IMG/VR virus record: IMGVR_UViG_3300044815_000174
Coordinates: 1 to 51,868 of that record
DNA: 51,868 nt
Strand: one strand, 5' to 3'
DNA from: a virus
Lineage: Duplodnaviria; Caudoviricetes
Shown here: positions 15,459-43,136 of the stretch, one piece after another
Layout of the letters: each line of letters starts with the position of its first letter
Position numbering within the stretch: position 1 is the stretch's first letter
The notes under the pieces: generated by a model
Database searches by the model: none
Told to the model about the DNA's origin: nothing
What the model saw: only the letters and a program-made list of their open reading frames with translations
Program-made: the position numbers and the translations under genes

Positions 15459-15493
15459 AGTTGTTTTACTCACACTTGTGCGAGGGCCGTAGG

Positions 15494-17978: not shown

Positions 17979-18018
17979 TGGTTTAACGCCGCAAGGCGCT
18001 TGAGGTTATCAGAATTTA

Positions 18019-18076
18019 TATCCTAAAACAATTTAGGATAGAGGCCACTTAAGAACCGTTTTAAGTGGCCTCTATC
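18019..18076. repeat. Dispersed palindrome, copies 3 and 4; the second has 16-bp arms and may terminate the PRTRC operon
   Basis: TATCCTAA-AACAAT-TTAGGATA, then GATAGAGGCCACTTAA-GAACCGTT-TTAAGTGGCCTCTATC. Confidence 0.8.
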
Positions 18077-18102
18077 TTGTTAATGCTATTAATCGTCCGC
18101 AG

Positions 18103-19068
18103 TCACGCCGCGTTCGAGGCAGCAAATGCCGACGGCAAGCGTTGAACGTAAGAGACCGGCTTCTTAATGATGCGAGCGACTTCCTCCGGCGTCGCATACG
18201 ACGTCGGTTTGACCACGCCGGAGGTGTTATTGACCTCGCAGGCGAATCGCTTGAGGTTGCGCTTGAGCAGCAGGCTGGTCAGGAACTTGCTGGCTTCAAC
18301 CGCGATGCTCGCGTTGATGTCGAAGGATTGCTGATTTGCCATCAGCATCTCCGCGCACGAAAGATTGTTGTTAGCCAGTTCTTCAGGCTGGTCGTCGAGC
18401 AGGTCCGGATAGAGGTGTGCGGGACTTGGCAAAGCCGCACACACATTAGGCTCTGGGAAAGCTGCGGCCAGCGCGTGAATGGAATAGGCGGAACCTAAGA
18501 GCACGCGCCCCGAGTTCTGCACGTTGCCGCAGTCGAGCCACCAGTAAGAAGGCGGGAAGGGGAGCTGATCGTCATTGTGTGAAAGCGTCTCATTGAGCGC
18601 GCGCCGCCCTTCGGCGCCGTCCACGCAGCCGACAAGGATCGTGATGTCGGCATCGTTTAAGTATTTTTCGTCGTACTTATCAACGGCGTATGTGGTGTTG
18701 ACGCCCCAGGCGAAACCGTAGCGGCGGGCGAGCGCGAGCGCTTTGGGCTGTCCGACTTCGGCATCACAGAAGAGCTGGCGACCGATGTTGCCTTCTTCGA
18801 CGATGTCAGGATCGAGAAGCGTCAGGTGGCCCCGCTTGCCGAGGCCGTAGAGGACTCGCGTCAGACGCGCCGCGTGCATGGCCATAAAGGAGCCTGTGCC
18901 GCCGCAGCCCGCGATGGCGATCTCGAACGAATCGAATTGCGGCAGATGAATCGTGGCCGCGTTGAGCATACTCAAATCGAGTGCGGGCATGATCTCCGGT
19001 TTTGCAACTTGCGGTTGGCGTTCCTGGCGCTGATTGTTGTTTCTGAATTTTCTATGTTTCCTGGGCAT
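18103..19068 (-). CDS. ThiF/E1-like activating enzyme (PRTRC ThiF)
   Basis: GCGGTGS, DPDIVEEGNIGRQ, GCVD, WLDCGN and SCAE (catalytic Cys) motifs. Confidence 0.92.
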   Translation of the reverse strand: MPRKHRKFRNNNQRQERQPQVAKPEIMPALDLSMLNAATIHLPQFDSFEIAIAGCGGTGSFMAMHAARLTRVLYGLGKRGHLTLLDPDIVEEGNIGRQLFCDAEVGQPKALALARRYGFAWGVNTTYAVDKYDEKYLNDADITILVGCVDGAEGRRALNETLSHNDDQLPFPPSYWWLDCGNVQNSGRVLLGSAYSIHALAAAFPEPNVCAALPSPAHLYPDLLDDQPEELANNNLSCAEMLMANQQSFDINASIAVEASKFLTSLLLKRNLKRFACEVNNTSGVVKPTSYATPEEVARIIKKPVSYVQRLPSAFAASNAA

Positions 19069-22255: not shown

Positions 22256-24580
22256 TTAGACTTTGGCGCGGGATTTCTTCGACGAAGACTTGCTCGCCTT
22301 AACAGCGCTCTTTTTTGCCGCAGTCTTGGTTATGGTCTTATCCGCGCGCGCGGCGGGCTTCTTCTTCGTTGAGGGGCTGCTGCCGGCGGCGGCGGTGGCG
22401 TTGCTTGTTGCCTTGGCGAGCGTTTTCTTCTTCGCCTGTGCCTCTTCGAGCTGTGTCTTGACTAATTGCATGACCTCTTCCGGCAATGGTCTGAGGACAT
22501 CGGCGGAGACGACCGTGCGGAATGCGCTGTACGGATCATTGCCAATGCTGATAGTGACGCTGACTTTGTCTTCCAGCCCGGGTATCCAGATGTATGAGAT
22601 CGCCAGCTTCTCATTGCCGAGAAGCTCTTCGATGGGAGTCGGCTCCGGTTGAGTGGGCGTTTGATTCTCCGCCTGACTTCGCGCCGTCTCACGCGCTTTT
22701 TGTCCGGCTTCATATTCGTCCTGATATTCGACGGCATCAGCGATAGCCTCTGCCGAGGTTTTGAATGGCGGGCGGCTAACCCTCAGCGTGTCGTTGTCTG
22801 CACGAAAGCCGGCCGGCATTCCGACCGTTGCATGACGGCGCATCACCCATCCGGCATTTCTCATCGTGACGCCGAAGTAGCTTTCAGATTGGCTGGATAC
22901 TTCGGGTTCCATCGGCGCACTCTTCTGACTGCCTGTTTCTGGTGCCCCTTCTGTGCCCTCCTGCTGTTCTGCCACTGCTGCCGTAGTAGGTTCGGGATTG
23001 GCTTCATTAGCCGGGAGAGAAGTCCCGTCAGGCGCAATCGTTTCTGTCACAACCTCGACACCAGAGATTTGAACTTCGAGCGCATCATGTCCCGGTTGCA
23101 GTTCAACGCCAGCGAAAAGCGGCGTCTCTGGCTCCGCTGCCTTCGTTGCGACCGCGCGCACGATGCCATCGGAGCCGCGACGGCGGCCGTCGTCAGCCAA
23201 AACATTTTGGATCAGGGTTGCGCGCGCCGTCGCCGTCAGGTTTCTGACCAGGCGCACGAGGCTGATTTGGGTGCCGCTCACGGCTGCAAGCTCTTCATCG
23301 CTCGATTCACCGTCCGGGTCTTCGATTAGAACCGGCACAAGGCGTGTAAGCGAGCGGCGCACGTCGCTCAGGAAAGGCTGCGTCATGCCTCCGGCAATTC
23401 CTGTCAGCATCGAATCGGATTCCTTGAACCACTCTTCATCGGCGAGCAGGGTGACAGCCTTGAGGCGCTTATCGTCGTTGGTCAGCCTGAGGCCATGGTT
23501 CGCGTTGGCACGCAGGGCAAACAGAATGGCGTCGCGCAGTGTGCCTTTGTGAACCTCGACATCGAGGAGCGCACCAGCTTCCAGTGCCGCTGCGTGGCGA
23601 TGGTTGCCGTCAGCGACCCAATAGGTTTCGCCATCGAAGAAGACATCTGCGGGAGGGTAGGTGCGACCGGCTTTATAGCCCGCGACGAGTCCCTCGGCGT
23701 GGTCACGATCCAGGCCCTGCGCGCGCATCAGGAGAGATGGATGCGTCGTGAGCCGGTCGGGCGTCATCTGCTGCACGAGAATTCGTGAAGGCTGATCGGC
23801 GCCGAGATCGAAAAGGGAATCGGAACGCGCAGGGTTGGCTTCATCCAGCGTCGCAGCGCCGATGATCTCCACCTTTTCAGCCTCACTTAAAACGCTTTTA
23901 AGAGACGGGTTGATGATCTGGAGAATGTCGGAGTTGACACTGTATTCCCATGCGTCGGCTTCGATGCCCGTGCCGAGCCCCATTGCTTTGAAAGCCTCAA
24001 TATCTTCAACGCAGCATGAAGCGACGATAAGAGTGCCAAGCTCGAGAGCGTCACGATAGGCGATGGCCAGTTCGACGATGCCCTTCAGGTTGTCGGTGGT
24101 GAGCGTGCATTTGAATTCGTAGAGAGTGTCCCCAGCGACCAGATCGGCGATGCCTTCGCCGCTGTCGACATCGGTTCTAAAATGCACGCCTTTGGAAGTC
24201 AGCTCTTCGATGAAGTGACTCCGCAGGTCAACTTCGTGCGCTAGCTCTTTATGCTGTTGTCCGGCAGCGGAAAGCGAAACATGCGGTGCCTTGATCTGGT
24301 TGGCGATGTCTCCAATGCTGGAAAATCCCGATGTGGTTTGAGCGGGCTGCTCCAAAGCCTCATCCGGGCTTTGACCATTGATCTCTCGTTGAATGACGTG
24401 CGCGGCGGCAATTACCTTTGCCTCGGTTTCGAAAGGGCCACGCGCGTCGGACGCCTCATAGTTGCGCCATACGAACTCACCATCTTCAGGAACGACTGTC
24501 CAGCCGGACTCAGACAAAAGTGAGAAGAGCGCTCCGTCTTCGGGACTCAAACCTTTAATTAAATCGATAATGCTGCTCAT
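22256..24580 (-). CDS. Multidomain ParB-like protein (PD-(D/E)xK-like domain, ParB/Srx, HTH, Lys/Ala-rich tail)
   Basis: VFFDGETYWVADGNHRHAAA and ANANHGLRLTNDDKR ParB-type motifs; GIADLV...YEFK nuclease-like motif; histone-H1-like C-terminus. Confidence 0.78.
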   Translation of the reverse strand: MSSIIDLIKGLSPEDGALFSLLSESGWTVVPEDGEFVWRNYEASDARGPFETEAKVIAAAHVIQREINGQSPDEALEQPAQTTSGFSSIGDIANQIKAPHVSLSAAGQQHKELAHEVDLRSHFIEELTSKGVHFRTDVDSGEGIADLVAGDTLYEFKCTLTTDNLKGIVELAIAYRDALELGTLIVASCCVEDIEAFKAMGLGTGIEADAWEYSVNSDILQIINPSLKSVLSEAEKVEIIGAATLDEANPARSDSLFDLGADQPSRILVQQMTPDRLTTHPSLLMRAQGLDRDHAEGLVAGYKAGRTYPPADVFFDGETYWVADGNHRHAAALEAGALLDVEVHKGTLRDAILFALRANANHGLRLTNDDKRLKAVTLLADEEWFKESDSMLTGIAGGMTQPFLSDVRRSLTRLVPVLIEDPDGESSDEELAAVSGTQISLVRLVRNLTATARATLIQNVLADDGRRRGSDGIVRAVATKAAEPETPLFAGVELQPGHDALEVQISGVEVVTETIAPDGTSLPANEANPEPTTAAVAEQQEGTEGAPETGSQKSAPMEPEVSSQSESYFGVTMRNAGWVMRRHATVGMPAGFRADNDTLRVSRPPFKTSAEAIADAVEYQDEYEAGQKARETARSQAENQTPTQPEPTPIEELLGNEKLAISYIWIPGLEDKVSVTISIGNDPYSAFRTVVSADVLRPLPEEVMQLVKTQLEEAQAKKKTLAKATSNATAAAGSSPSTKKKPAARADKTITKTAAKKSAVKASKSSSKKSRAKV
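23883..23904. repeat. Dispersed palindrome, copy 5 (inside the parB-like gene)
   Basis: TCACTTAA-AACGCTT-TTAAGAG. Confidence 0.6.
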
Positions 24581-24617
24581 AAATTCTTGCTCCTGTGCGT
24601 TGGTTGATTTATTCGAT

Positions 24618-25079
24618 CTAGGCGAGGGCGATCACTTTGCAATTCGTCTTATCGCCGTTCTTGGTGCATTGCACGAGAATCTTCTTTTTGAAGGGATACT
24701 CACCCGGTTCCATGTTTCCTTTGACACCCAATTCATCTAGATATTCCGGGTAGATAGGCAGGCCAAACTTGGTGTACTTGCCGCCTTTGACGTTGAAGTG
24801 CTTGCCCTTTTTGTCGTGCGTCACCTCAAGGGTCTCGCCCATGACAGTTTCCGTCGTCGTGTTCGGATCGCTGGCTACGGGTGCAGTCGGCGTTACAGGG
24901 GTGGTCTGCACAGAAGTCCATCCGCCGGCGAGAGCCTTATTGATTGACTCGGAACTTTTGCGAAAGATTTCGCCCTTTTGAGTGAGATTGCCGGAAAGCT
25001 GGAAGGTATGGACCACACCCTGCCGATCTTGAAGCTGGAAGGACTCGCTGAAAAAGATGGGGGCTGTTTCATCACTCAT
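24618..25079 (-). CDS. Hypothetical protein (possible OB-fold/SSB-like C-terminal domain)
   Basis: Good ORF in the early left operon; beta-rich C-terminal half (KHFNVKGGKYTKFGLPIYPE). Confidence 0.55.
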   Translation of the reverse strand: MSDETAPIFFSESFQLQDRQGVVHTFQLSGNLTQKGEIFRKSSESINKALAGGWTSVQTTPVTPTAPVASDPNTTTETVMGETLEVTHDKKGKHFNVKGGKYTKFGLPIYPEYLDELGVKGNMEPGEYPFKKKILVQCTKNGDKTNCKVIALA

Positions 25080-25081
25080 AA

Positions 25082-25309
25082 CTAAATTCCTTTGGCGAGA
25101 ATGAGTCGCGCCAGTTCTTCACTCGTCATAAAATTTCCAAGTGGCTGTGCGCGACGCCTCATGGCTTCAAGCTCTTCCGTGATGATCTGTTCAATGCGAA
25201 AGAGGTTTGCACCCAGATTGCGAAGTTCTTTCTCCCGCCGCGCGCGATACTCTGCTTCGTGGTCGCGGTGCGTCGCGTGTGCAAGCGCGTGTTTTGGTAG
25301 CGCGCTCAT
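25082..25309 (-). CDS. Hypothetical protein
   Basis: MSALPKHALA..., ATGA-coupled to the upstream gene. Confidence 0.55.
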   Translation of the reverse strand: MSALPKHALAHATHRDHEAEYRARREKELRNLGANLFRIEQIITEELEAMRRRAQPLGNFMTSEELARLILAKGI

Positions 25310-25569
25310 GCCGTTCGTCTCTCCTTGCTGGCGGGGAGCGGTGTCCTCTCGGCCTGGTCGTCCACGTCGAGCGCCCATTCGATTTCATTCCCGATTCGGT
25401 GAAGGGTTAGCCCTGCGTCGGCAGGCATATGTGCCGTGCGTTGCATGGATTCGAGTGAGCTTTTGAGCCATGACATGCGCTGGCGAAGGACGGTGTTCTC
25501 GATTTCAAGGTCAGTGGCGGGGGCGAAGATGCGCCGGAAAATCAAAGTCAATCTTTGGAGATAAGTCAT
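25306..25569 (-). CDS. Hypothetical protein
   Basis: GGAGG ribosome-binding site; ATGA overlaps with both neighbours. Confidence 0.6.
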   Translation of the reverse strand: MTYLQRLTLIFRRIFAPATDLEIENTVLRQRMSWLKSSLESMQRTAHMPADAGLTLHRIGNEIEWALDVDDQAERTPLPASKERRTA

Positions 25570-25775
25570 CGTGTCCTCCTGTAAGTTTGGGGTTGCGTGC
25601 CTCTGACGAGATCGGCGGCATACTCAATGCGGGAGATGGCGGCGGTCATGGCTTCAAGGGCGGTGTGTGGGTCTGTTTCAAAGACCATCATGGCGCGGGC
25701 GATGTCGCTCCGAGCGTCATCTAATTCACCGCCGATTTGTTGGAGTGATGAAAAGGCTGTTTCTAATGCGCTCAT
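25566..25775 (-). CDS. Hypothetical protein
   Basis: ATGA overlaps within the operon. Confidence 0.6.
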   Translation of the reverse strand: MSALETAFSSLQQIGGELDDARSDIARAMMVFETDPHTALEAMTAAISRIEYAADLVRGTQPQTYRRTR

Positions 25776-26017
25776 GCTGATCTCCGTTCTTTGCGTTCCT
25801 GCCAGCGGCGGCGGATGTCCGCGCGCTTGAGTCTCGTGATGGCTTCGTCAATAAGGGCTGAGGGGCGCGTGCTCAATCTGATCTGCGTCCAGACCTCATT
25901 GGTGAGAGCGAGCGCGAGTTCGCCGTCCGTCATGTTCTCCGCTTCGGTGCGGTCGTGAATGTGCTGCAAGAGATTTTCGAGAAATCCGTCTGGGTATTTT
26001 CTTACTTGTTCGCTCAC
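25772..26017 (-). CDS. Hypothetical protein (GTG start, MSEQVRKYPD...)
   Basis: GTGA overlap with the upstream stop; GGAGG ribosome-binding site. Confidence 0.55.
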   Translation of the reverse strand: MSEQVRKYPDGFLENLLQHIHDRTEAENMTDGELALALTNEVWTQIRLSTRPSALIDEAITRLKRADIRRRWQERKERRSA

Positions 26018-26178
26018 GCTGCTTTCCTCCATTCCAGGTCTGAAACCGCTTCTAAATATCTTGACCACAAACGCGCGCTCGCCCGATGCCAGCACGCCTT
26101 TTGAAACTCGAATGCCTTACATCCACAATCACCGTTAGCGATATAGACCTCATCCGATGTGCTCGATTGAATGAGCAT
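26014..26178 (-). pseudogene. SWIM zinc-finger protein, 3' fragment
   Basis: MLIQSSTSDEVYIANGDCGCKAFEFQKACWHRASARLW contains the CxC...CxH SWIM motif; short, with no obvious ribosome-binding site. Confidence 0.6.
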
Positions 26179-26342
26179 TGACCATCTCGCTTGCGGACGA
26201 TCAAGGATGTCAGCTTGTCCAGTTCGGCTTTCATCGCGCGCCGTGAGCCTGGGGCTGGCTTAGTTGTCCGCATCGGCTTTCTGCGGCGGTTGAAGCGGGT
26301 GCGCTTCATGTATGCGCGTCGGTTATTCATTAATCGCTCCAT
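26052..26342 (-). pseudogene. NinG/Rap-like endonuclease, 5' fragment
   Basis: Basic N-terminus then ELDKLTSLIVRKRDGQC; similarity stops at the first Cys of the expected CxxC. Confidence 0.55.
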
Positions 26343-26353
26343 TCCTTCCCGCT

Positions 26354-26566
26354 CTAATCAAAATCACCTTCAAGCCAAGCCGTCGCTGTTTCTCGGTTCG
26401 GGAAATTCTCCGTCCAAGCCTTTCCGGTTTCGTTATCTATCGTCGTGAAACTGCCGTCTGATTCAGGAAGAAGAAACAAGCCTGTTGGGAGGCGTGTCTC
26501 AATAATCAACATGGCTTCTTTTTCGCTGATTAAAGCCACCTTTCCAGCCTGAACATTTTCAGTCAT
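26354..26566 (-). CDS. Hypothetical protein
   Basis: MTENVQAGK...TIDNETGKAWTENF...AWL; TAATG overlap. Confidence 0.65.
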   Translation of the reverse strand: MTENVQAGKVALISEKEAMLIIETRLPTGLFLLPESDGSFTTIDNETGKAWTENFPNRETATAWLEGDFD

Positions 26567-26685
26567 TAGTCGCTGAACTCCTCTTTGCATTCATGGCAGC
26601 GATAGGTGCTGACTTCCGCGATTGATTCAATGAGGGTGCAGGTCGTTACTTCGCAGCACTCAGGGCAGTAGGTTTCGACTTCCAT
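26566..26685 (-). CDS. 39-aa zinc-ribbon protein (MEVETYCPECC...YRCHECKEEFSD)
   Basis: Two CxxC motifs; TAATG overlaps on both sides; GGAGGT ribosome-binding site. Confidence 0.65.
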   Translation of the reverse strand: MEVETYCPECCEVTTCTLIESIAEVSTYRCHECKEEFSD

Positions 26686-26990
26686 TACGCGGCCACCTCC
26701 GCCCCTCTTACGTCGGCGTAGATGTCGATTTCCCCTACCCACTCGTCTGTGCCGATTCCAAAATTGTCAGCGCGTTGGAGTAAAGCCTCTTGTCGCTCGC
26801 GCAGGCATTGATCGCAATGTCGCTTCTTAGGAATGTCTAAGCGGACGTTGTGGAAACGGGTGAGCGGCTTGGCGTGGTGTCCACACTCTAAAATCGTTTG
26901 CACACTCTCCACGTCGAACCCGCAAAACTTGGCTGGCGTACTCGTTGTGCCGATGACTTTTTTGAGTGGGGCTTTCTGTGTACGCTGCAT
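26685..26990 (-). CDS. First gene of the left early operon, Cys/His zinc-binding protein
   Basis: LECGH...RHCDQC; GAGG ribosome-binding site downstream of PL. Confidence 0.65.
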   Translation of the reverse strand: MQRTQKAPLKKVIGTTSTPAKFCGFDVESVQTILECGHHAKPLTRFHNVRLDIPKKRHCDQCLRERQEALLQRADNFGIGTDEWVGEIDIYADVRGAEVAA

Positions 26991-27012
26991 TTGCTTGTCC
27001 TCTCGCTCGTGG

Positions 27013-27088
27013 TTTATCTAGTAATCATCTAGACAAATAGGATTATAAACTTTATCTAGATAATGTCAAGAGGATTATGGTATAGTCC
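27013..27088 (-). promoter_or_regulatory. PL-like leftward early promoter with TCTAG operators, plus a divergent extended -10
   Basis: Minus-strand TTGACA (27069-27064), 16 bp, TATAAT (27047-27042). TCTAG cores at 27017, 27028 and 27055. Plus-strand TGGTATAGT. Confidence 0.8.
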
Positions 27089-27125
27089 CGAAAAGTAATT
27101 CCTGAGACTTTATTTGGAGGGGCTG

Positions 27126-27491
27126 ATGAGTGAAGAGAAGAGGGAAGGCGGGCGGATAACTCTCGAACAGGCACAGCACTGTTTGATTGGGATTGCCGTG
27201 CGCTCTTTATTTGTAGTAGGCGAGCATCTGCACTGGCAGCACATGCTCAACGATAGTGCTATTAAAATCACTGAGCCGACGCCTGCCACGATAAGCCGAG
27301 AGCAGCTGCACGGCATCATTATGGATAGGATGAATGAGGAGTTCGGAGTCAAGGCGGAGCGCGTTGCCATCGTTGAGGCAACACAGTTGAGAGAACAGGC
27401 AGAGGCTTTAGAGCGTCGCGCAAAACAAGAGCCACCGCCACCACCACCAAAAGACATTGTATGGCCGAGCAGTCTTGTTAAGAGCGGTTAG
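27126..27491 (+). CDS. Hypothetical protein
   Basis: GGAGG ribosome-binding site before MSEEKREGG; downstream of the extended -10. Confidence 0.6.
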   Translation: MSEEKREGGRITLEQAQHCLIGIAVRSLFVVGEHLHWQHMLNDSAIKITEPTPATISREQLHGIIMDRMNEEFGVKAERVAIVEATQLREQAEALERRAKQEPPPPPPKDIVWPSSLVKSG

Positions 27492-28083
27492 CGTTTGGAA
27501 GTTCTGACTTGAGGCGGCTAATAGCTGTATCTATCGCGGTATGGAATCTCTGCCGTTTACAATAAAGAGTTTTACTGTAAACGATGTGATCTTCTCTGTT
27601 GCCTGCGATGGCCATTGTTCGTGTGACAGGGTAGCGCGTTTCATGCGGGCGCAGTTCATCAAGCGGAATGCAATAAGCAGTGAGGTCGAAGCCTGTATCA
27701 TTCTTTAGTTTTTCCAGAATGTCGTTGTGCTGAATGACAGTAGCTTGCTCGACATTGGCATTGGGTAGAAATCTTTTGATTGATTCGAGTTCGATAAGTG
27801 ATTGTTCGTATCTTTTTTGGAGGGGCGTGAGAACCGGCGATGCTTTGTTTTCAATTAGAGAACGGCGCACAAAGAGTTTATTGAACCACCTGTATGCGCC
27901 TTTTATAGCAAAGAGGGAAACAGCGGTGCCGCTAATGAAAAGACAGGCAATAAAGTATCTATAACCGAGGACTTCCTTATGGAAAAAATAAAAGTACGCA
28001 GACGTCACGCCTGCTGCCGATGCGAGGATACCCAGTGTAGTGAGGAGATTGCCCATGAAGTTGATGAGCCTACCCTTTTTCAA
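27478..28083 (-). CDS. Membrane protein with two N-terminal TM helices (lysogen-expressed moron candidate)
   Basis: Two hydrophobic segments; AT-richer than the flanking genes; downstream of the repressor operon. Confidence 0.65.
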   Translation of the reverse strand: MKKGRLINFMGNLLTTLGILASAAGVTSAYFYFFHKEVLGYRYFIACLFISGTAVSLFAIKGAYRWFNKLFVRRSLIENKASPVLTPLQKRYEQSLIELESIKRFLPNANVEQATVIQHNDILEKLKNDTGFDLTAYCIPLDELRPHETRYPVTRTMAIAGNREDHIVYSKTLYCKRQRFHTAIDTAISRLKSELPNANRS

Positions 28084-28190
28084 ACCGCGTTCATATTCTT
28101 TATGTTTGGCTACTCCGTTGGGATATTTGTTTTTATGTGGCTAAATGGCAAGCTACCTTCCCTCTGGGCGCCTCTCTGGTGAGAAGTTAA

Positions 28191-28496
28191 TTAGCGCACG
28201 CGCCCCAAGCCGCTGAGTCCAATTCCAAGCACGAATAGCAGGACAAACATTGCTATGGCGATGATGAAGGGAACCAGCCACGCCAGAATCACGCCCAATG
28301 CAATCGTGCGCGACCACCCACCTCGATAGACTTCAACGGTCAGGTTGAACCGTTGAAAGTATTTGCCACAGTTCGGACAGTCTTCCGCGTTCCTGGAAAT
28401 CATCTTTCCACAGTCAGAGCAGGGCAAAAGATTCGCTCCGTATTGGACAGGCTGTGCCGGTGGCGTTGCGGGGCTGTTCAGGTCAAGCATGCTCAT
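28191..28496 (-). CDS. Zinc-ribbon plus TM protein
   Basis: CSDCGKMISRNAEDCPNCG followed by a long hydrophobic helix. Confidence 0.8.
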   Translation of the reverse strand: MSMLDLNSPATPPAQPVQYGANLLPCSDCGKMISRNAEDCPNCGKYFQRFNLTVEVYRGGWSRTIALGVILAWLVPFIIAIAMFVLLFVLGIGLSGLGRVR

Positions 28497-28524
28497 GATG
28501 AGGTGTTCCTTTGTGGGAGGTTAA

Positions 28525-29001
28525 TTATTTCTTGCCCGCTTTTCTTTGAGGCGGCGCTGCGCTGGTTGGAGTCGTCGCCACGACGCGACAATCTTCCATC
28601 ATTACGCTTCCGATCTTCCCATTTCCTTTACATCGGAAGGTTGCTGTTTGGCCGTTTTGCAGGGATGCCAGCGATTGAACTTGATCGTCTTCAAACTCAC
28701 ATTGCACATAAAACATTACTGAACCTGTTCCACTGTCGAGCAGAACCCGCCCACCACTAATTAAACCTTTTGCAATGTGGTCAACCTTACCCGTTACATC
28801 AATGATACGGCCTTTGAAGGAATTGTCTGCGGCGACCTCATTGCTCTGATAGCTTTTGAATAAAGCTTCAGCCGTAACCTGCCTCTCCGCGCTTGCCGGC
28901 GCACTGCTGCTGCTTGTAGAAGTTCCGCCCTGAGAGCAAGCCAGCACAAAAAATAGCCACATCCCAAACACAAGAATCAGAGGGCTGTTTTTGATGTTCA
29001 T
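28525..29001 (-). CDS. OB-fold (tRNA_anti-like) lipoprotein
   Basis: Lipobox VLAC; VTAEALFKSYQSNEVAADNSFKGRIIDVTGKV motif. Confidence 0.85.
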   Translation of the reverse strand: MNIKNSPLILVFGMWLFFVLACSQGGTSTSSSSAPASAERQVTAEALFKSYQSNEVAADNSFKGRIIDVTGKVDHIAKGLISGGRVLLDSGTGSVMFYVQCEFEDDQVQSLASLQNGQTATFRCKGNGKIGSVMMEDCRVVATTPTSAAPPQRKAGKK

Positions 29002-29031
29002 GGCTGTGAGGTGTTCCTTTGGGTAAGGGGA

Positions 29032-29460
29032 TTATCGAACATCGTGAATGCAGTAGGTGACAACTCCCCACGCTTCACATCGCTGCTCTTTATGAATTTC
29101 TTTTGGCCGCATCCGTTTGTTACCCGGTATCAAGAACAGCCGCCCGCCGACTCGTGAGAACTTCTTGACTGTCAAAGCCCCGTCAACATCGACGACAACG
29201 ATGCTGCTAGAGTGCGGCTGTATTGCGCGATCTACAACAATCAAATCGCCAGAATGAATTTCATCATCTTCCATTGAATCTCCCGTTACAGTTAGGCCAT
29301 ACGTCGCATCGGGATTAACAATTAGCCGCTCGTTTAGGTCTATGTAGTCAGCTTCATCTATTGATTCGGCATGTCCGGCAGGCACGCTCCCTGCAAATAG
29401 AGGAATGTGTAAAGCGTCGGCTAACTGTTTTGGATTAAATACAATTTTAGCTGTAAGCAT
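29032..29460 (-). CDS. Stand-alone S24 (UmuD/LexA-type) autopeptidase without a DNA-binding domain
   Basis: VPAG cleavage site, VTGDSM (catalytic Ser), TVKK (catalytic Lys), WGVV. Confidence 0.9.
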   Translation of the reverse strand: MLTAKIVFNPKQLADALHIPLFAGSVPAGHAESIDEADYIDLNERLIVNPDATYGLTVTGDSMEDDEIHSGDLIVVDRAIQPHSSSIVVVDVDGALTVKKFSRVGGRLFLIPGNKRMRPKEIHKEQRCEAWGVVTYCIHDVR

Positions 29461-29462
29461 TG

Positions 29463-29768
29463 CTATGCCGCACCTCGCTTCTTATTCTCAGTCTGTACTT
29501 GCCCGCCATTGTGCATAACGCGCCGCTCCTTCTTCTTGCGCTTGCTACGATCAAGAATTCTCTTTTCCTCAAGAGGAAAGAGCTTTTCAAATCCCTCGGC
29601 GTCCTGTTCCTTAGCCTCACGTATTTGATTCCTGATGAATTGATAAGCAAGCGCCGTTGCGTTTCGGTTCCCCTTAATAGACGCCGCCACATGGAACTCA
29701 ATAAGCTCCGTCAGGGTCACTGGAACAGTAAATAGTTTTGGTTTCTCTTTCACCATAGTATCTAGCAT
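29463..29768 (-). CDS. Putative repressor, ribbon-helix-helix-like (start uncertain, 29768 or 29756)
   Basis: KLFTVPVT beta strand followed by two helices; cI position, divergent from the cro-like gene. Confidence 0.6.
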   Translation of the reverse strand: MLDTMVKEKPKLFTVPVTLTELIEFHVAASIKGNRNATALAYQFIRNQIREAKEQDAEGFEKLFPLEEKRILDRSKRKKKERRVMHNGGQVQTENKKRGAA

Positions 29769-29870
29769 ATATCTAGATGTTGCTTTTGGATATACCATAA
29801 CGAAAAATCCTCTTGACATTATCTAGTGAATCTTTTAGAGTGCTTTATCTAGATAGCTTCTAGACGGAGG
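29755..29870 (+). promoter_or_regulatory. PR/PRM-like divergent promoters with five TCTAG operator cores
   Basis: TTGACA (29813-29818), 17 bp, TAGAGT (29836-29841). TCTAG at 29761, 29772, 29822, 29848 and 29859. Minus-strand TGGTATATC. Confidence 0.8.
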
Positions 29871-29874
29871 GAAC

Positions 29875-30066
29875 ATGCACAAGAAAAAAGACAAAGTGAT
29901 TTTCGTTCTAGCCGATGGCGAGTTTCATGCGCGCGTAAATGCGGCTGCCGAAATCGCCACAGAGGGGAACATTTCCCGACTCACGCGGGAGGCGCTGAAC
30001 GAAAAGATTGAGCGCCTTGCTGAACTTCATCCGCAACATCGGAAGCGCCTCGCGCAGGCCGCCTAA
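29875..30066 (+). CDS. Cro-position ribbon-helix-helix protein
   Basis: DKVIFVLAD...HARVNAAAE...NISRLTREAL RHH pattern; GGAGG ribosome-binding site. Confidence 0.72.
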   Translation: MHKKKDKVIFVLADGEFHARVNAAAEIATEGNISRLTREALNEKIERLAELHPQHRKRLAQAA

Positions 30067-30073
30067 CCCCTAA

Positions 30074-30322
30074 ATGCAAACCACAACCAGAGAAGCGCAC
30101 AGATATAAAAAGAGCCTCGATAAGTTAACGGCTCAGGTTTGCAAATATCTTGCGCGGCTGGATGAGTTGATGAAACAGCCATCGTCAAACGAGCGCGGTC
30201 AGGAAGTCGCGAAGCTATCGAACGCGCTTGATATGGCAAATGACGCGGCGATGCACCTTGACCTCAACATGTCATTTCAGCAAATCAACAATCGTAAGAA
30301 GAAGGCTGCTCGAAAATCTTGA
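30074..30322 (+). CDS. Hypothetical helical protein
   Basis: ORF directly after the cro-like gene. Confidence 0.65.
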   Translation: MQTTTREAHRYKKSLDKLTAQVCKYLARLDELMKQPSSNERGQEVAKLSNALDMANDAAMHLDLNMSFQQINNRKKKAARKS

Positions 30323-30349
30323 TGCAACCCACTTCCCCTAAAGAAACCA

Positions 30350-31163
30350 CAGGGCTAACACACGCGACAAAGCGGAATCTTCCCCTTCGCAAAGCCCGTC
30401 CTAAAACGTTTTAGGTGAACCGGAAGCATTGCCTGAATCAAGATTTGTCACAGTGCATGGTCGGCACTCTGAAAGCGCGGATAACAAGACCTGTCGGTGA
30501 GCCGCATCGGACTTGCGATGCTGGCAATGAGTCCGGCGAAAAGTGCGACACCGCGACGTAGGTAAAGACGATAACTAAACCTGTGTTAGCCGAGCATCCT
30601 CAACATGTCCTTCGTGACTAGAGGCAATCGGCGCAATTTTCGATCTTTCAAAAGTTATCACGCGCCTGTAAGCAATCGGCTATATGCCAGATTGTTAGAG
30701 CTTCGGCTCTCCGGTGCAGCCGCCCACCAGAGCGGAGTCCGGCGCGGTGAAGTTTCGCCGTCAGTAACCAGCGCGGGGCGAACAAATGCGGCGGAGATGC
30801 TGGCAGTCATCATTTACTGCTCACCTTTGCAACGTCCATCTCGGGATGGGTAGCGGCTGTAAGCCGGACGAGAGTAACCGGCAACCTTTGATCTTTGACG
30901 ACATACCACAATAAGGGTTCGACGGTGAGCGAGTGTCGCGTTGCAAGAGGCACATACTCACCGGCGGGCTGGCTAAGACCGAAGCAAAGGGTTCGCGCCT
31001 GAGCTTTGGAAACTGACCAGCGCGCCGACTGAATCCGCATACGAGCAACGTCTGGAACTACCCGACTATAAATGCATAGTCGGACAGCCCAACCAGCGTT
31101 ACAGAGCGGGGCTTGCTTTCATGCACGCTGAACGGGCGCGAATAAATGCGGCATGTAGCCCTG
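30350..31163 (+). ncRNA. Candidate large structured non-coding RNA (about 815 nt)
   Basis: About 1 kb without a credible ORF, many nested helices, and a cUUCGg tetraloop. The 5' end CAGGGCTA pairs with the 3' end TAGCCCTG. Confidence 0.7.
30398..30418. repeat. Dispersed palindrome, copy 6
   Basis: GTCCTAA-AACGTT-TTAGGTGA; perfect 16-bp palindrome at 30400-30415. Confidence 0.85.
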
Positions 31164-31352
31164 CTCCTTAATCTCCGAATGCGGCGCAAGCCTGATGCGA
31201 GTTATCAAAACAACCTTTCAGTTTGTTTACAGCTTGATCGCCTGCGCAGGCGCGCTGTGGCTCTGCCTATACCACGACGACCAACTCTGACAGCGCACAC
31301 TTTAATGATTTCAACTTTCAATCTCTAGTCCAAATTCAAAGGTATTTTTGGA

Positions 31353-31832
31353 GTGTCAAAACAGAAGCGACCACACCGGCCATTGACTCAGCAAACCAAA
31401 GACGCCCTTGAAGGGATCGTCAAACCGGTAGCTGACGAGATGGGCTTTGAAGACGGCTCATATCTTTACAAGATTCTCTCCGACACCGGCTCGGCCTGCG
31501 ACCATTACGCACACTTCAAACCACTGTTTCGCAGCGTCGCGCGAGTCTCATTAAGCCGCGCGCGAATCTGGCTGAACGACCTCAACGCCATATTTCAAAG
31601 GGAAGCAGAGAAGCAATCCAAAGAGTCGAACTTTCAGGCGCAGAGCAGTCGAGCGTTAGAGATGCTGGCGAAGGCCAATTCGATTTTAGCGGACAAGAGG
31701 ATTGAGACACTGACGCGGGATGAACAGAAAGCAATGAGCGGAGCTTTTAGAGAGGCATCGCAGGCCGCCGAGATGGCGAGCATTCTGGTTGAAGATTCGA
31801 TGAAGAGGGAAGCGGAGATGGCGCTTCAATGA
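31353..31832 (+). CDS. cII-like HTH regulator (by position and fold pattern)
   Basis: IVKPVADEMGFEDGSYLYKIL HTH-like segment with a helical C-terminal domain; lambdoid cII position. Confidence 0.5.
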   Translation: MSKQKRPHRPLTQQTKDALEGIVKPVADEMGFEDGSYLYKILSDTGSACDHYAHFKPLFRSVARVSLSRARIWLNDLNAIFQREAEKQSKESNFQAQSSRALEMLAKANSILADKRIETLTRDEQKAMSGAFREASQAAEMASILVEDSMKREAEMALQ

Positions 31833-31835
31833 GGT

Positions 31836-31900
31836 TGGCGGGCTTTCGCGCTTGGCTTATCACATTCTCCCGATCTGATGTCTGAGTGCCAAGCCCGCCG
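31836..31900. terminator. Long hairpin between the convergent cII-like and propeptide genes
   Basis: GGCGGGCTT pairs with AAGCCCGCC; an alternative CTTGGC/GCCAAG pairing also exists. Confidence 0.55.
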
Positions 31901-31904
31901 ACGG

Positions 31905-32084
31905 TTAGAGGATAAAGCTGATGATCGAAGAGGCGAAAGTAAATCCGGCATCTTCGATGTCGCCCATCACATTGGAAACAGGCGGCGGTGCGAATCCGGC
32001 ATCTTCGATGTCACCGGCAAAAGCCGTCACCGGCAGCGACAAGATGACGGCCAGAAGCAAGAGCGTCAGAAACTTTTTCATCAT
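31905..32084 (-). CDS. 59-aa secreted signalling propeptide MMKKFLTLLLLAVILSLPVTAFA-GDIEDAGF-APPPVSNVM-GDIEDAGF-TFASSIISFIL
   Basis: Perfect AAAGGAGGT ribosome-binding site, classical Sec signal ending in A-F-A, and an octapeptide repeated twice. Below the 60-aa cutoff of the ORF track. Confidence 0.88.
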   Translation of the reverse strand: MMKKFLTLLLLAVILSLPVTAFAGDIEDAGFAPPPVSNVMGDIEDAGFTFASSIISFIL

Positions 32085-32128
32085 GGACCTCCTTTCACTC
32101 GAAGTTAGACGAACCTTTTCACTTTAAC

Positions 32129-32785
32129 ATGTCACGAAACTTAGCGGAGACAAAAAACAAGGCCCTGGCGCACGCGCTCAATGATGCGATTGGGCTGCGC
32201 GCGGAAGGCCGCCCGCGCGAGGCGTTAGTTCTCCTTGATTCGCACGCCGCAGAGTTCGAGCGTGGCGACGATCTCTACCGCGCCAAGTATCACAACGGCC
32301 GGGCGCTCAGTCTCAAAGCTTTGAAGCAATACAACGAAGCGTTCCGAGAGTTTGAATTAGCAAAACATTTTTATGGTCTGGCGGGCGACATTCCCCGCGT
32401 TGGTTTATCCGAAAGTAATATCTCAAATCTCTATCTCCAAAATAGTAATACCCGGCTCGCGAAAGATCATCTCTTCAACGCAATTTCCATTTTCCAAACT
32501 TACAAAGAGACGGTTTTTCTCTCACAGGCTCACGAGAATCTGGCGCGAATCTTCTACATCGAGGGCGATTACAGGCAGTCTGCCAGAGCCGCGTGGTTGG
32601 CCTACAACGCGCTCTTAGACGAAGCCTATGAGGTCATCGCGCCGAGAGCCAGAGAAGAGGCCAGAAAGACTCTGGACTGTGCGCTCGACGCTGTTGACGG
32701 GCTAACCACTCAAGACATTCAACGAACTCGCGAGCGAAACGTGTGGGAGCGTCTGCTCGCGTGGCTGCACCTTAAACGGGTGTAG
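32129..32785 (+). CDS. TPR protein, candidate intracellular peptide receptor (RRNPP/Rap-like, no HTH)
   Basis: TPR helix pairs with groove Asn residues (YHNGRA, SESNISN, AHENLAR); 44 bp from, and divergent to, the propeptide gene. Confidence 0.8.
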   Translation: MSRNLAETKNKALAHALNDAIGLRAEGRPREALVLLDSHAAEFERGDDLYRAKYHNGRALSLKALKQYNEAFREFELAKHFYGLAGDIPRVGLSESNISNLYLQNSNTRLAKDHLFNAISIFQTYKETVFLSQAHENLARIFYIEGDYRQSARAAWLAYNALLDEAYEVIAPRAREEARKTLDCALDAVDGLTTQDIQRTRERNVWERLLAWLHLKRV

Positions 32786-32786
32786 C

Positions 32787-32836
32787 GGGCAAGTGGCGGT
32801 GCGTGCGGGGTGAGGACGCAAGCACCGTCACTGCCT
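32787..32836 (+). other. Strong RNA hairpin after the TPR gene
   Basis: AGTGGCGGTGC...GCACCGTCACT stem with an inner TGCG/CGCA pair. Confidence 0.5.
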
Positions 32837-32936
32837 TACTCCAAGGCGAGCGGCGGGCGCGCCGGTTGTGGACTCCAAGCGAGGGGGCGGAGTTGACACA
32901 CTCAGAGAGGGGTGATCAGTCCCAAGTCCCAGACGG

Positions 32937-33818: not shown

Positions 33819-33843
33819 ACCACTTAAAAACGTTTTAAGTGGT
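33819..33843. repeat. Dispersed palindrome, copy 7
   Basis: ACCACTTAA-AAACGTT-TTAAGTGGT. Confidence 0.85.
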
Positions 33844-36338: not shown

Positions 36339-37319
36339 ATGACCAGACCCGCATCTCTCCTAATCGATGAACCACCCTTACAGGTGCTGCCGACGCTCGC
36401 CGAGCGCATTGGCCTTAATGAATCCATCGTGCTCCAGCAGGTTCACTACTGGCTGCGCAACTCCAAAAACGTGATCGACGGCCAGAAATGGACATTCGAC
36501 ACCTATGAGGACTGGCAGCAGAAAAACTTCAAATTCTGGAGCGTCAAGACCGTTCAACGCGCTTTCCTCTCCCTCGAAGAGCGTGGTCTTTTGATCTCCA
36601 TGCAGCCCGATAAGCGCGACCGCCGGAAGTGGTATACCATCGATTACGACCTCCTCGAAAAGTTGTCTTCAGACACACACACACCGGACGACCGCTTCGC
36701 TTCGGGCTCTCCGCCAACAGGACAAAATGACCTCTTGCAAGAGGACAACTTGTCATTATCAGACGGGACAACTTGTCCTCTTGCATCAGGACATGTTGAC
36801 CTCTTGGGAGATGACAACTTGTCCTCACCATCAGGTCAACATGTCCCGTTGTATAAAAACCCGGAGACTTCCTCTGAGAATCCCGGAGAACTCACACACA
36901 CCGCAGCGCGCTCTTCGCCCGGCGGCAACGGGAATAGAAACGGTCAACAGGCGTGTGTGTGTGAAACTCCGCATCGTTCCAAAATCTGCGACGAGGAGCG
37001 GATCCGCATTGCCAGCAACCTGCCGGGTGTTATTACCCCTGAATTTTACGCCATGACGCCTGACGCGCGCAGGGGCACCTTCGATGCCGTGTACCTCAAA
37101 CACCAGCGCCAACTCGCCAAGCCAGGGGCGACCAGCACGGTAGAGCGAGACACTTCCATCTGCCCTGACTGTCACGGCCATGGGTTCGTCTACCCCGGCG
37201 GCGATACGCCGGAGGGCCGGAAGCTGGGGACGAAAAAATGCCAGCATCCTCGCCTGGAATCATCGCCGAATGCCCTCCCCAACTCCACAAGCGAGGTGAC
37301 AGCTTCCAATGGCCGGTAG
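36339..37319 (+). CDS. Lytic replication initiator Rep2 (replisome-organiser-type winged HTH)
   Basis: LLIDEPPLQVLPTLAERIGLNESIVLQQVHYWL...FWSVKTVQRAFLSLEERGLL...KWYTIDY; intragenic iterons; lambda-O-like position. Confidence 0.88.
   Translation: MTRPASLLIDEPPLQVLPTLAERIGLNESIVLQQVHYWLRNSKNVIDGQKWTFDTYEDWQQKNFKFWSVKTVQRAFLSLEERGLLISMQPDKRDRRKWYTIDYDLLEKLSSDTHTPDDRFASGSPPTGQNDLLQEDNLSLSDGTTCPLASGHVDLLGDDNLSSPSGQHVPLYKNPETSSENPGELTHTAARSSPGGNGNRNGQQACVCETPHRSKICDEERIRIASNLPGVITPEFYAMTPDARRGTFDAVYLKHQRQLAKPGATSTVERDTSICPDCHGHGFVYPGGDTPEGRKLGTKKCQHPRLESSPNALPNSTSEVTASNGR
36720..36846. repeat. Lytic origin: six palindromic 13-bp iterons GG(A/T)CA-N3-TG(A/T)CC at 22-23 bp period
   Basis: Copies at 36720, 36743, 36766, 36789, 36812 and 36834. 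Confidence 0.88.
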
Positions 37320-37593
37320 AAAAAGACAGGGACTTGTCGCCTCCGGCCTCTGCCGCACCTGTGGAAAGGCGCGCGGGGCCGATGGCACGACGATCTACTG
37401 CCGCCCATGCGCCAACGAGCGTAGCGCAGCCCAGGCCGCGCGCAATGCTGCCAGGAAAGAAGACCACAGGCTGAGAGGGCTGTGCCTCACCTGCCCCACT
37501 CGCCTGACCTCGCGCAATGATCCGCTCTGCCCTGCCTGCCGGAGAAGAAAACGCCGTCGAGACCTCCGTTACGATGCAAAATCAAGCCCTTGA
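37309..37593 (+). CDS. Tandem zinc-finger protein, candidate late-gene activator
   Basis: Two GLC..C-X-C..C units with basic helices; last early gene, ending at late promoter 1. Confidence 0.65.
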   Translation: MAGRKRQGLVASGLCRTCGKARGADGTTIYCRPCANERSAAQAARNAARKEDHRLRGLCLTCPTRLTSRNDPLCPACRRRKRRRDLRYDAKSSP

Positions 37594-37653
37594 ATTTCCG
37601 ACGTTGCGCCCGACGTTGCGCCCGCTTCCCGCTTCCCGCTCTCCCGCATAATG
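37592..37653 (+). promoter_or_regulatory. Late promoter 1 (lysis/terminase operon)
   Basis: ATTT, (CCGACGTTGCGC)x2 at 37598-37621, 25 bp, CATAAT at 37647. Confidence 0.8.
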
Positions 37654-40269: not shown

Positions 40270-40291
40270 CACCTAAAACGGTTTTATGTGG
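40270..40291. repeat. Dispersed palindrome, copy 8
   Basis: CACCTAA-AACGGTT-TTATGTGG. Confidence 0.8.
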
Positions 40292-43020: not shown

Positions 43021-43073
43021 GCTTGCTTCTGTTTACACCCTTCCCCTCCTTCATCCCACTATTTTAACCACCT

Positions 43074-43136
43074 GAAATTTCCGACGTTGCGCCCGACGTT
43101 GCGCTCCCAAACGCGGCTCCCAACCACTGCATAATG
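43074..43136 (+). promoter_or_regulatory. Late promoter 2 (head-tail operon)
   Basis: ATTT, (CCGACGTTGCGC)x2 at 43081-43104, 25 bp, CATAAT at 43130; same geometry as late promoter 1. Confidence 0.82.

What the first reader, a model, noticed from the sequence alone, without database searches (positions are those of the whole stretch)
30350..31163. About 815-nt highly structured non-coding RNA candidate in the early right transcript
Seen: about 1 kb without a convincing ORF, packed with nested helices. The ends pair (CAGGGCTA 30350-57 with TAGCCCTG 31156-63). GGCTAACACA 30353-62 can alternatively pair with TGTGTTAGCC 30582-91, a mutually exclusive option that could be a switch. Further helices: extended arm 30489-30563 (ACCT/AGGT, GTC/GAC, GGTG/CACC, CGCA/TGCG, CGGACT/AGTCCG); TCGGCGC 30628 with GCGCCGA 31022; AGAGC-UUCG-GCTCT 30697-710; TGCAGCCGC 30715 with GCGGCTGTA 30853 (G-U); CGGTGAG 30923 with CTCACCG 30957; CCGCAT 31035 with ATGCGG 31146, enclosing hairpins 31062-83 and 31087-137. 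Known: phages carry giant ornate RNAs of similar size (GOLLD, ROOL) and cis-acting antiterminator RNAs (HK022 put). Inference: a GOLLD/ROOL-class or new large RNA at the nutR-equivalent position. No N-like antiterminator is evident in the genome.
Basis: partly seen in the sequence, partly recalled or inferred. Interest (0 to 1): 0.85.

Follow-up and report, generated by a model that had tools for sequence, protein, structure and literature searches.

The report
Untranslated 1-kb spacer in phage early operon
A soil phage carries a roughly 1-kb stretch with no gene in its early operon that folds somewhat better than chance, but nothing shows it is a giant structured RNA; only its first quarter is conserved in the one relative found.

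Summary
The ORF-free stretch is real (30323-31352). All six frames carry stops of all three kinds, there is no coding signal, and no Pfam or PHROG trace. When the whole gap is folded, only 4 of the 13 are probable. The 'ends pair' helix and the 'extended arm' have probability near 0. Complementary 8- to 10-mers occur at chance frequency.

Folding energy beats dinucleotide shuffles: z -3.2 on + (0 of 85 shuffles as good) and -2.6 on - (2 of 85). Four other 814-nt windows of the same genome also reach z of -3.0 or lower.

No Rfam family matches (GOLLD, ROOL, introns and others), even at E up to 10. The genome has no tRNA genes.

No homologous DNA could be fetched, so covariation is untestable. 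One coded run (X2) holds a fragmentary relative. There 30443-30596 is about 98% identical while neighbouring genes are about 87%, and the relative's contig becomes unlike right after 30596. That boundary coincides with a predicted domain of about 240 nt (30353-30591) closed by a 10-bp helix.

Best reading: an untranslated regulatory spacer of the rightward early transcript with a conserved 5' module. It is not a GOLLD/ROOL-class RNA. Confidence is low.

The parts
29813..29841 (+). PR-like sigma-70 promoter (TTGACA-17-TAGAGT) that would transcribe the region
   Evidence: 10 of 12 consensus positions. Operator words TATCTAGW cluster at 29770-29855 and 27015-27062 only. A 30-nt inverted copy sits at 27047-27076 (I3).
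29875..30066 (+). First early ORF (63 aa). It looks like a small ribbon-helix-helix or Cro-type regulator, by my reading only.
   Evidence: Positive coding score of 4.6 per 120 nt. No Pfam or PHROG hit.
30074..30322 (+). Second early ORF (82 aa, basic at both ends), no family, no homologue
   Evidence: Only its own copies appear among 5.8 billion proteins.
30323..31352 (+). ORF-free, non-coding stretch (the finding, with corrected limits)
30323..30400 (+). C-rich, G-poor tract directly after the stop of ORF82. I read it as a rut-like site; this is inference.
   Evidence: GC skew is -0.35 at 30320-30399.
30353..30591 (+). Predicted 5' domain of about 240 nt closed by the 10-bp helix GGCUAACACA/UGUGUUAGCC
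   Evidence: Helix probability 0.87, with 9 of 10 pairs in the MFE of the whole gap. The domain 30351-30593 gives z -2.50, with 2 of 200 shuffles as good; its limits were chosen after the fact.
30400..30415 (.). Perfect 16-nt palindrome CCTAAAACGTTTTAGG, resembling a palindrome family found in other intergenic spots
   Evidence: (D4).
30443..30596 (.). Stretch nearly identical (2 mismatches and 1 inserted base in 154 nt) in the relative held by coded run X2
   Evidence: record 9. Flanking genes in the same run show 86 mismatches in 641 nt. Fisher p = 1e-6.
30504..30521 (+). 6-bp hairpin GCAUCG-GACUUG-CGAUGC. The relative's C30521U turns G-C into G-U on the + strand; on the - strand it would be an A-C mismatch.
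   Evidence: Pair probability 0.98. The variant is, table 3.
30697..30710 (+). Hairpin with a C(UUCG)G tetraloop
   Evidence: P 0.87-0.97.
30715..30861 (+). Domain closed by a 9-bp helix (one G-U pair). The domain itself folds no better than shuffles.
   Evidence: Helix P 0.84. z -0.78 on + and -0.46 on -.
31062..31083 (.). 8-bp perfect hairpin. It extends to 15 bp on the - strand (31056-31089).
   Evidence: P 0.99 on +, 0.96 on -.
31353..31832 (+). First gene after the gap (159 aa, no family). One homologue at 85% identity, on a 3144-bp contig that I could not fetch.

Best explanation
The stretch 30323-31352 is an untranslated intercistronic spacer of the rightward early operon of a temperate soil phage, possibly one maintained as a plasmid. 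It separates two small immediate-early genes (ORF63, ORF82) from the delayed-early block (ORF159 and onward to the replication genes).

It is modular.
- The 5' module is about 240 nt (30353-30591). It begins just after a C-rich, G-poor tract and is predicted to close on a 10-bp helix. This is the part kept nearly unchanged in the only relative.
- The 3' part is about 750 nt, self-complementary, and not recognisably kept in that relative.

My committed mechanism, which is inferred and not shown: the spacer acts in cis on the nascent early transcript as a checkpoint for delayed-early expression. A long untranslated RNA exposes the transcript to Rho, with the C-rich tract serving as a loading site. 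The folded 5' module would modulate termination, read-through or RNA processing and stability.

Shown: the stretch is non-coding; it sits downstream of a promoter-like site; it folds above chance; its 5' part is locally conserved.

Inferred: that it is transcribed, and every functional step.
For: Non-coding.

Position: it lies about 480 nt downstream of a PR-like promoter that overlaps operator repeats, in an operon that runs on to the DnaD-like replication gene and the endolysin.

Terminators: none of the intrinsic type is predicted on the + strand in 29400-32200, so co-transcription with ORF159 is plausible.

Rut-like tract: C over G skew of -0.35 right after the ORF82 stop.

Folding:
- Whole region: z -3.18 with 0 of 85 shuffles as good.
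- Other 1-kb gap of the genome: z -0.46.
- 8 arbitrary windows: -2.25 to +1.41.

Modularity and conservation:
- In run X2, 30443-30596 has 2 mismatches and 1 indel, against 86 mismatches in 641 nt of neighbouring genes.
- The relative's contig turns unlike immediately after 30596. That is the 3' edge of the 10-bp closing helix, which has P 0.87.
- All three changes that I could place are compatible with the + strand fold. They are a G-C to G-U change at 30521; an inserted A after 30563, in a predicted internal loop; and an extra U in the loop of hairpin 30374-83, read from the loose end at 30387.
Against: - No transcript data: no RNA run holding the stretch was listed.
- There is only one relative. 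It is fragmentary (depth 2-4), and it was found because it shares exact 31-mers with this very stretch. The near-identity is therefore partly a selection effect, and could equally reflect recent recombination between mosaic phages.
- The conserved 154 nt alone fold no better than shuffles on the + strand (z -0.78, against -2.40 on the - strand).
- The whole-region signal is nearly as strong on the - strand.
- The same z level is reached by four other windows of the genome.
- No element is shared between the PL and PR transcripts, as nut or put sites would be. There is only a 21-nt 81% match, of a kind reported 63 times in 7.4 kb.
- The Rho-dependence idea rests on base composition alone.
Confidence: 0.35

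Rival explanations
1. Functionless spacer. It would be a remnant of decayed or deleted genes, or a mosaic joint, whose self-complementarity has no role. The 98% identical piece would be a recently exchanged segment.
For: - No family, no covariation and no strand preference.
- The listed long helices are at chance frequency.
- Four other windows reach a similar z.
- The relative shares only a short piece with a sharp break, as at phage mosaic boundaries.
- The genome tolerates another 1.07-kb gap.
Against: - No trace of any protein family in the 10 longest stop-to-stop frames at E up to 1. The single hit is 13 bits at E 0.096.
- No residual codon bias.
- Folding is better than all 85 shuffles on the + strand, unlike the other gap.
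- Phage genomes are compact: 86% is coding by a crude gene call.
Confidence: 0.3
2. The conserved 5' module encodes a small diffusible product. It could be a trans-acting or antisense RNA of about 150-240 nt, an immunity-RNA logic like P4 CI or P1 c4 (recalled). Or it could be the 48-aa Cys-containing ORF 30415-30561.
For: - Local near-identity in the relative.
- ORF48 would stay intact in the relative: 30521 C>T is Ala to Val, and the inserted base lies after its stop (my reading).
- The 10-nt complementarity 30353-62/30582-91.
- The - strand of 30443-30596 folds at z -2.40.
Against: - No promoter-like or terminator-like site in or around the module on either strand.
- ORF48 has a negative coding score of -2.85 per 120 nt and no Shine-Dalgarno-like site.
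- ORF48 has no relatives in 1.84 billion representatives. The 3 hits at E 1e-5 to 5e-4 are short stretches of 932- to 1269-aa proteins.
- No Rfam sRNA match beyond 14 bits.
- A 10-mer complement is expected 0.41 times by chance.
Confidence: 0.15
3. One large free-standing structured RNA of 0.8-1 kb of a new class.
For: - 1 kb without an ORF.
- z -3.2 on + with 0 of 85 shuffles as good.
- Part B alone gives z -3.12 with 20 shuffles.
- Excess of short inverted repeats.
- A C(UUCG)G tetraloop on the + strand.
Against: - The end-closing helix vanishes when flanks are included, and 9 of 13 proposed helices have P of 0.012 or less.
- In the only relative, the 205 nt after 30596 are under 80% alike, and no piece was laid on 30613-31416.
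- No relatives of part B turned up via pseudo-ORF searches.
- No promoter or terminator of its own.
- The sub-domain 30712-30864 is unremarkable at z -0.78.
- The - strand folds as stably.
Confidence: 0.1
4. A DNA-level element, such as protein-binding palindromes or an auxiliary replication or partition site, rather than an RNA.
For: - The folding signal is nearly equal on both strands, as expected for DNA palindromes.
- The 16-nt palindrome at 30400-15 resembles a family of palindromes in other intergenic spots.
Against: - No iterons or tandem repeats in the gap.
- Iteron-bearing origins are already present inside the two replication genes (D1 and D3).
- The repressor operator words are absent from the gap.
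- No integrase was found among the ORFs scanned, which argues against an attachment site.
Confidence: 0.1

Closest known systems
Lambda-type nutR/tR1 interval between cro and the delayed-early genes (textbook knowledge, recalled)
   Same: - Position: downstream of a PR-like promoter and small Cro-like genes, and upstream of the delayed-early and replication genes.
- An untranslated RNA with a C-rich tract that could load Rho.
- A divergent repressor region with matching operators at PL-like and PR-like promoters.
   Different: - About 1 kb instead of a couple of hundred nucleotides.
- No N-like protein was recognised among the 37 ORFs I scanned with PHROGs. The structural genes were not scanned.
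- No element shared with the PL transcript.
- boxA and boxB were not tested.
HK022 put RNAs (PMC9378689, passages read)
   Same: A cis-acting nascent RNA in early transcripts that needs no protein factor. putR lies about 270 nt downstream of the PR start, so the position is comparable.
   Different: put RNAs are about 70 nt with two stem-loops, and occur as two similar copies (putL, putR). Here the candidate module is about 240 nt, lies about 540 nt from the promoter, and no second copy was found downstream of the PL-like promoter.
GOLLD and ROOL large ornate RNAs (PMC5737381, passages read; 10.1101/2024.12.08.627333, listing and start of abstract only)
   Same: A large non-coding stretch in a phage genome. 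The size is of the same order: ROOL averages 581 nt.
   Different: - No match to any Rfam model.
- No tRNA genes nearby: 0 in the genome.
- No evidence for conserved multistem junctions or pseudoknots.
- Most of the stretch is not conserved in the one relative.
Leader-embedded immunity RNAs of P4 (CI), P1/P7 (c4) and N15 (recalled, not checked in a paper)
   Same: A small structured RNA carried inside an early leader transcript of a temperate or plasmid-like phage, with short complementarity to nearby sites. The genome looks plasmid-like: two replication modules, a ParB-like gene, and no integrase found.
   Different: - No Rfam hit.
- The only complementarity, 10 nt, is at chance frequency.
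- No evidence of processing.

Membership tests
   cmscan against all 4227 Rfam 15 families gave 0 matches at gathering score in the whole window. At E up to 10 there were only aceE-II (12.3 bits, cut-off 100) and STnc420 (14.2 bits, cut-off 70). That these named families are in the library is recalled, not shown by a call.
GOLLD / ROOL | Usual context: near tRNA genes, often in prophages (PMC5737381) | tested here: not met
   ARAGORN finds 0 tRNA or tmRNA genes in the 51.9-kb genome. The phage context is met. This is a contextual feature, not a strictly defining one.
GOLLD / ROOL or any new large structured RNA | Conserved multistem junctions or pseudoknots supported by covariation | not testable with these tools
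   No homologous DNA could be fetched. The only relative is seen through the read laying tables.
HK022 put | Two similar copies of about 70 nt with two stems, downstream of PL and PR | tested here: not met
   The inverted-repeat search of 24000-31400 finds only a 21-nt 81% match between the gap and the PL transcript (26901-21 / 30915-35), among 63 pairs of that quality. This is a weak test, because diverged copies would be missed.
Lambda-type nut site | boxA and boxB RNA plus an N-type protein | not tested
   I did not type consensus motifs from memory. No antitermination family turned up among the 37 ORFs scanned with PHROGs.
Intrinsic-terminator attenuator | G+C-rich hairpin followed by a U run on the transcribed strand | tested here: not met
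   No + strand terminator-like site in 29400-32200. The single site is on the - strand at 31382-31368.
Rho-dependent terminator | C-rich, G-poor unstructured rut RNA in an untranslated stretch; termination sensitive to Rho | tested here: inconclusive
   The composition fits at 30320-30399 (GC skew -0.35) and at 31160-31360 (-0.19 to -0.24). Function cannot be tested here.
P4 CI / P1 c4 type immunity RNA | Small processed RNA with complementary target sites in the same leader; Rfam model | tested here: inconclusive
   No Rfam match. One 10-nt complementary pair exists, but 74 of 300 shuffles have at least one.

The most novel reading that the evidence does not exclude
The 5' module of about 240 nt (30353-30591) is a new class of phage cis-regulatory RNA. 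It would sit at the head of an exceptionally long untranslated spacer and decide, without a dedicated N-like protein, whether RNA polymerase reaches the delayed-early genes. The variable 3' three quarters would be the substrate on which termination or decay acts. A bolder form is that the whole 1 kb is a new giant RNA whose 3' part evolves fast.
Probability: 0.2. Interest if true: 0.6.

Novelty: new variant of a known kind. Interest (0 to 1): 0.3.

Why it matters
If the 5' module is a working RNA element, it would be a protein-independent or Rho-linked timing switch in an uncultured soil phage lineage that has no relatives among sequenced phages. It would also be an unusually long untranslated spacer for a compact phage genome. 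As it stands, it is a lead without transcript or covariation evidence. The useful results here are negative. It is not GOLLD or ROOL. The proposed 815-nt fold is not robust. Any follow-up should target 30353-30596 rather than the whole stretch.

Tried and rejected
- Stop-codon recoding: rejected. All three stops occur in all six frames.
- Hidden small genes: only weak AAGG or AGGA sites before ORFs of 25-51 aa, and coding scores are negative.
- Decayed known gene: the 10 longest stop-to-stop frames give nothing in Pfam or PHROGs at E up to 1, apart from one hit at 13 bits, E 0.096.
- tRNA or tmRNA-like element, or an attachment site in a tRNA gene: 0 tRNA genes, and no integrase among the ORFs scanned.
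- MITE or IS remnant: the only terminal inverted repeat is the 8-mer, which is at chance frequency. By inspection, there is no flanking duplication.
- Repeats shared with the rest of the genome: none involve the gap beyond chance-level 25-nt 72-76% matches.

Homologue hunt, all without retrievable DNA:
- GenBank phages by blastn and tblastn.
- Plasmids: only the cold-shock gene matches.
- IMG/VR with ORF159, ORF82, an ORF159 alignment and three pseudo-ORFs of the gap.
- Species genomes.
- JGI metagenome contigs, with a 26-nt exact word and with the ORF159 alignment.
ORF82 has none. The pseudo-ORF 30605-30853 has none. The pseudo-ORF 30415-30561 has only spurious hits.
- The ESM Atlas gave no usable hit for ORF159.

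Expression: no RNA holder was listed among public runs.

Run X2 laid no piece on 30613-31416. Apart from the contig that runs on unlike after 30596, this absence of cover is not evidence.

Full report
**Setting**

The window is a complete IMG/VR virus record of 51,868 bp with 127-bp terminal repeats. A soil-metagenome run holds it whole.

It has a lambda-like immunity region:
- A leftward operon with an S24-peptidase (LexA/CI/UmuD-type) ORF at 29032-29460, preceded by a separate 118-aa ORF at 29463-29819.
- A rightward promoter-like site, TTGACA-17-TAGAGT, at 29813-29841.
- Operator words TATCTAGW clustered only at 29770-29855 and at 27015-27062, where a 30-nt inverted copy of the promoter/operator sits.

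Rightward follow:
- ORF63 (29875-30066) and ORF82 (30074-30322).
- The stretch in question.
- ORF159 (31353-31832), a TPR-like ORF and a cold-shock-domain ORF.
- A DnaD-like replication initiator with internal iterons, an endolysin and the small terminase.

Among the ORFs scanned I found no integrase. I did find a second replication module (O-like 12046-13038 with 18-nt iterons, plus a MuB/DnaC-like ATPase) and a ParB-like ORF. The phage may therefore be maintained as a plasmid. That is inference.

The non-coding stretch is real and runs from 30323 to 31352 (1030 nt).
- Every frame on both strands has 13-18 stops between 30250 and 31400, of all three kinds. No recoded stop opens it.
- A codon model trained on 24 long ORFs of the genome shows no coding frame. 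16 of 17 windows have no frame above 4, and the exception reaches 4.7 against a gene mean of 7.6.
- In-gap ORFs score -6.8 to -1.2 per 120 nt, against +2.1 to +5.8 for the neighbours.
- No start codon in the gap has a convincing ribosome-binding site.
- The ten longest stop-to-stop frames have no Pfam or PHROG relative at E up to 1.
- By a crude gene call, this is one of only two gaps of about 1 kb in the genome.

The helices are present as sequence, 13 of 13. The proposed architecture, however, is not robust.
- In the ensemble of the whole gap only four helices are probable: 30353-62/30582-91, the UUCG hairpin, 30715-23/30853-61 and 31062-83.
- The end-closing helix and the five-segment 'extended arm' have probabilities of 0.004 or less.
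- Perfect complementary 8-, 9- and 10-mers occur as often as in dinucleotide shuffles (63, 111 and 74 of 300 shuffles reach the observed counts). 6- and 7-mers are in excess (0 and 4 of 300).

The folding energy gives a moderate signal.
- It is better than shuffles: z -3.68 and -3.66 with 20 shuffles. With 85 shuffles, z is -3.18 on + (0 of 85) and -2.63 on - (2 of 85).
- This is not a general property of the genome. Eight arbitrary 814-nt windows give -2.25 to +1.41, and the other large gap gives -0.46.
- It is not unique either. Of the eight windows most stable for their GC content, four reach -3.06 to -4.85. By GC regression, 19 of 155 windows are at least as stable.
- The signal comes mainly from 30601-31352 (z -3.12, 20 shuffles).
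- The sub-domain 30712-30864 is ordinary.
- Strand asymmetry is slight. One C(UUCG)G loop favours the + strand, and a 15-bp hairpin at 31056-89 favours the - strand.

**Known families**

- cmscan against Rfam 15 finds nothing at gathering score in the window.
- At E up to 10 in three sub-searches it finds only two chance-level hits.
- There are no tRNA genes, whereas GOLLD and ROOL are often near tRNAs and in prophages. [quoted passage not shown]
- put RNAs are about 70 nt and come as two similar copies after PL and PR (PMC9378689, passages read). I found no copy pair between the two early transcripts.

The stretch is therefore not a member of any described family that I could test.

**Relatives**

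The phage has no relatives in GenBank phages or plasmids by DNA. ORF159 also finds nothing there by protein search.

Searches of IMG/VR, species genomes and JGI metagenome contigs returned no locus. The queries were the flanking proteins, an alignment, pseudo-ORFs of the gap and an exact 26-mer.

Among 5.8 billion proteins:
- ORF159 has a single homologue, 85% identical, on a 3144-bp contig that I could not fetch.
- ORF82 has none.

Covariation, the decisive test, could therefore not be run.

One indirect view exists. A small coded run (X2) contains low-depth contigs of a relative.
- On the genes 31445-32861 its pieces differ at 86 of 641 positions (13%).
- The piece on 30443-30596 differs at 2 positions plus one inserted base (Fisher p = 1e-6).
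- Another piece starts at 30387, preceded by 19 letters that resemble 30368-86 with small indels.
- The 360-nt contig that carries 30443-30596 continues for 205 nt that are not at least 80% like the window.
- No piece was laid between 30613 and 31416.
- The break lies 5 nt after the 3' arm of the 10-bp helix 30353-62/30582-91, which is the most probable long-range helix in the gap (P 0.87). That helix closes a domain of about 240 nt (z -2.50, 2 of 200 shuffles; limits chosen afterwards).
- The three placeable changes spare the + strand fold. They are a G-C to G-U change in the 6-bp hairpin 30504-21, which would be an A-C mismatch on the - strand; an inserted A in an internal loop; and an extra U in a hairpin loop.

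Caveats:
- The run was found through exact words shared with this very stretch, so near-identity is partly selected for.
- Recent recombination would give the same picture.
- Three changes prove nothing.
- The 154 nt alone fold at z -0.78 on + and -2.40 on -.

**Reading**

The evidence fits a modular untranslated spacer better than one 815-nt RNA.

I commit, at 0.35, to a cis-acting regulatory spacer of the early-right transcript. A C-rich, G-poor tract follows the ORF82 stop. Then comes a conserved folded module, and then about 750 nt of untranslated, self-complementary RNA before ORF159.

No intrinsic terminator is predicted on the + strand. If the spacer gates delayed-early expression, it would more likely do so through Rho, RNA folding or processing. 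All of that is inferred.

Rivals and their weights:
- Functionless remnant or mosaic joint: 0.3.
- A small RNA or small protein made from the conserved module: 0.15.
- A new giant RNA: 0.1.
- A DNA-level element: 0.1.

**Verdict**

- The GOLLD/ROOL reading fails the membership tests.
- A new large RNA is neither shown nor excluded.
- Interest is modest until transcripts or homologues are in hand.
- Follow-up should concentrate on 30353-30596.

Supplements of the cited papers were not consulted.

Noticed in passing
window 15435-15456, 18047-18068, 23884-23905, 33821-33842, 40270-40291 (and 30400-30415): A family of AT-rich palindromes (CACTTAAAAC.GTTTTAAGTGG type). The core TAAAANNGTTTTA matches 9 times on the two strands against 0.4 expected. 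By my reading of the ORF map, four of the five copies sit just after gene ends. A 1-nt shorter perfect palindrome lies inside the gap. It could be a regulator binding site or an RNA hairpin.
   Followed up: partly
window 29032-29819 (-): The repressor-like function appears split. A 118-aa ORF without any family is followed directly by a separate 142-aa S24 peptidase ORF (UmuD/LexA/CI C-terminal type), instead of one CI-like protein.
   Followed up: no
window 27015-27076 and 29770-29855: Matching promoter/operator sets (TATCTAGW words; a 30-nt inverted copy at 87%) mark PL-like and PR-like promoters 2.7 kb apart. Five leftward genes, including a Sie-like lipoprotein, lie between them.
   Followed up: partly
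window 36714-36851 and 12392-12947: Iteron arrays lie inside two different replication-initiator genes: 23-nt repeats and inverted arms in the DnaD-like ORF, and an 18-nt period in the O-like ORF. Together with a ParB-like 774-aa ORF (22256-24580), and no integrase among the ORFs scanned, this suggests a phage-plasmid lifestyle.
   Followed up: partly
window 13839-14909: A second ORF-poor gap of about 1.07 kb, with three copies of a 21-nt repeat (14767-14900). Its folding is no better than shuffles (z -0.46 for 13967-14780).
   Followed up: partly
window 37588-37621 and 43071-43104: A 34-nt direct repeat (94% identical) stands at the start of the endolysin ORF and about 95 nt before the 481-aa ORF at 43198. 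It is possibly a late promoter or regulator site.
   Followed up: no
window 31864-32084 (-): A small leftward ORF (59 aa) with a signal-peptide-like N-terminus and an internal 23-nt repeat (31942-64, 31993-32015) is embedded in the rightward operon. A promoter-like site on the - strand (31892-31864) would send antisense transcription into ORF159 and toward the gap.
   Followed up: no
window 15181-15994 and 17491-18634: These windows fold better against shuffles than the finding or about as well (z -4.85, -3.61, -3.06). They include the intergenic palindromes at 15435 and 18047.
   Followed up: no
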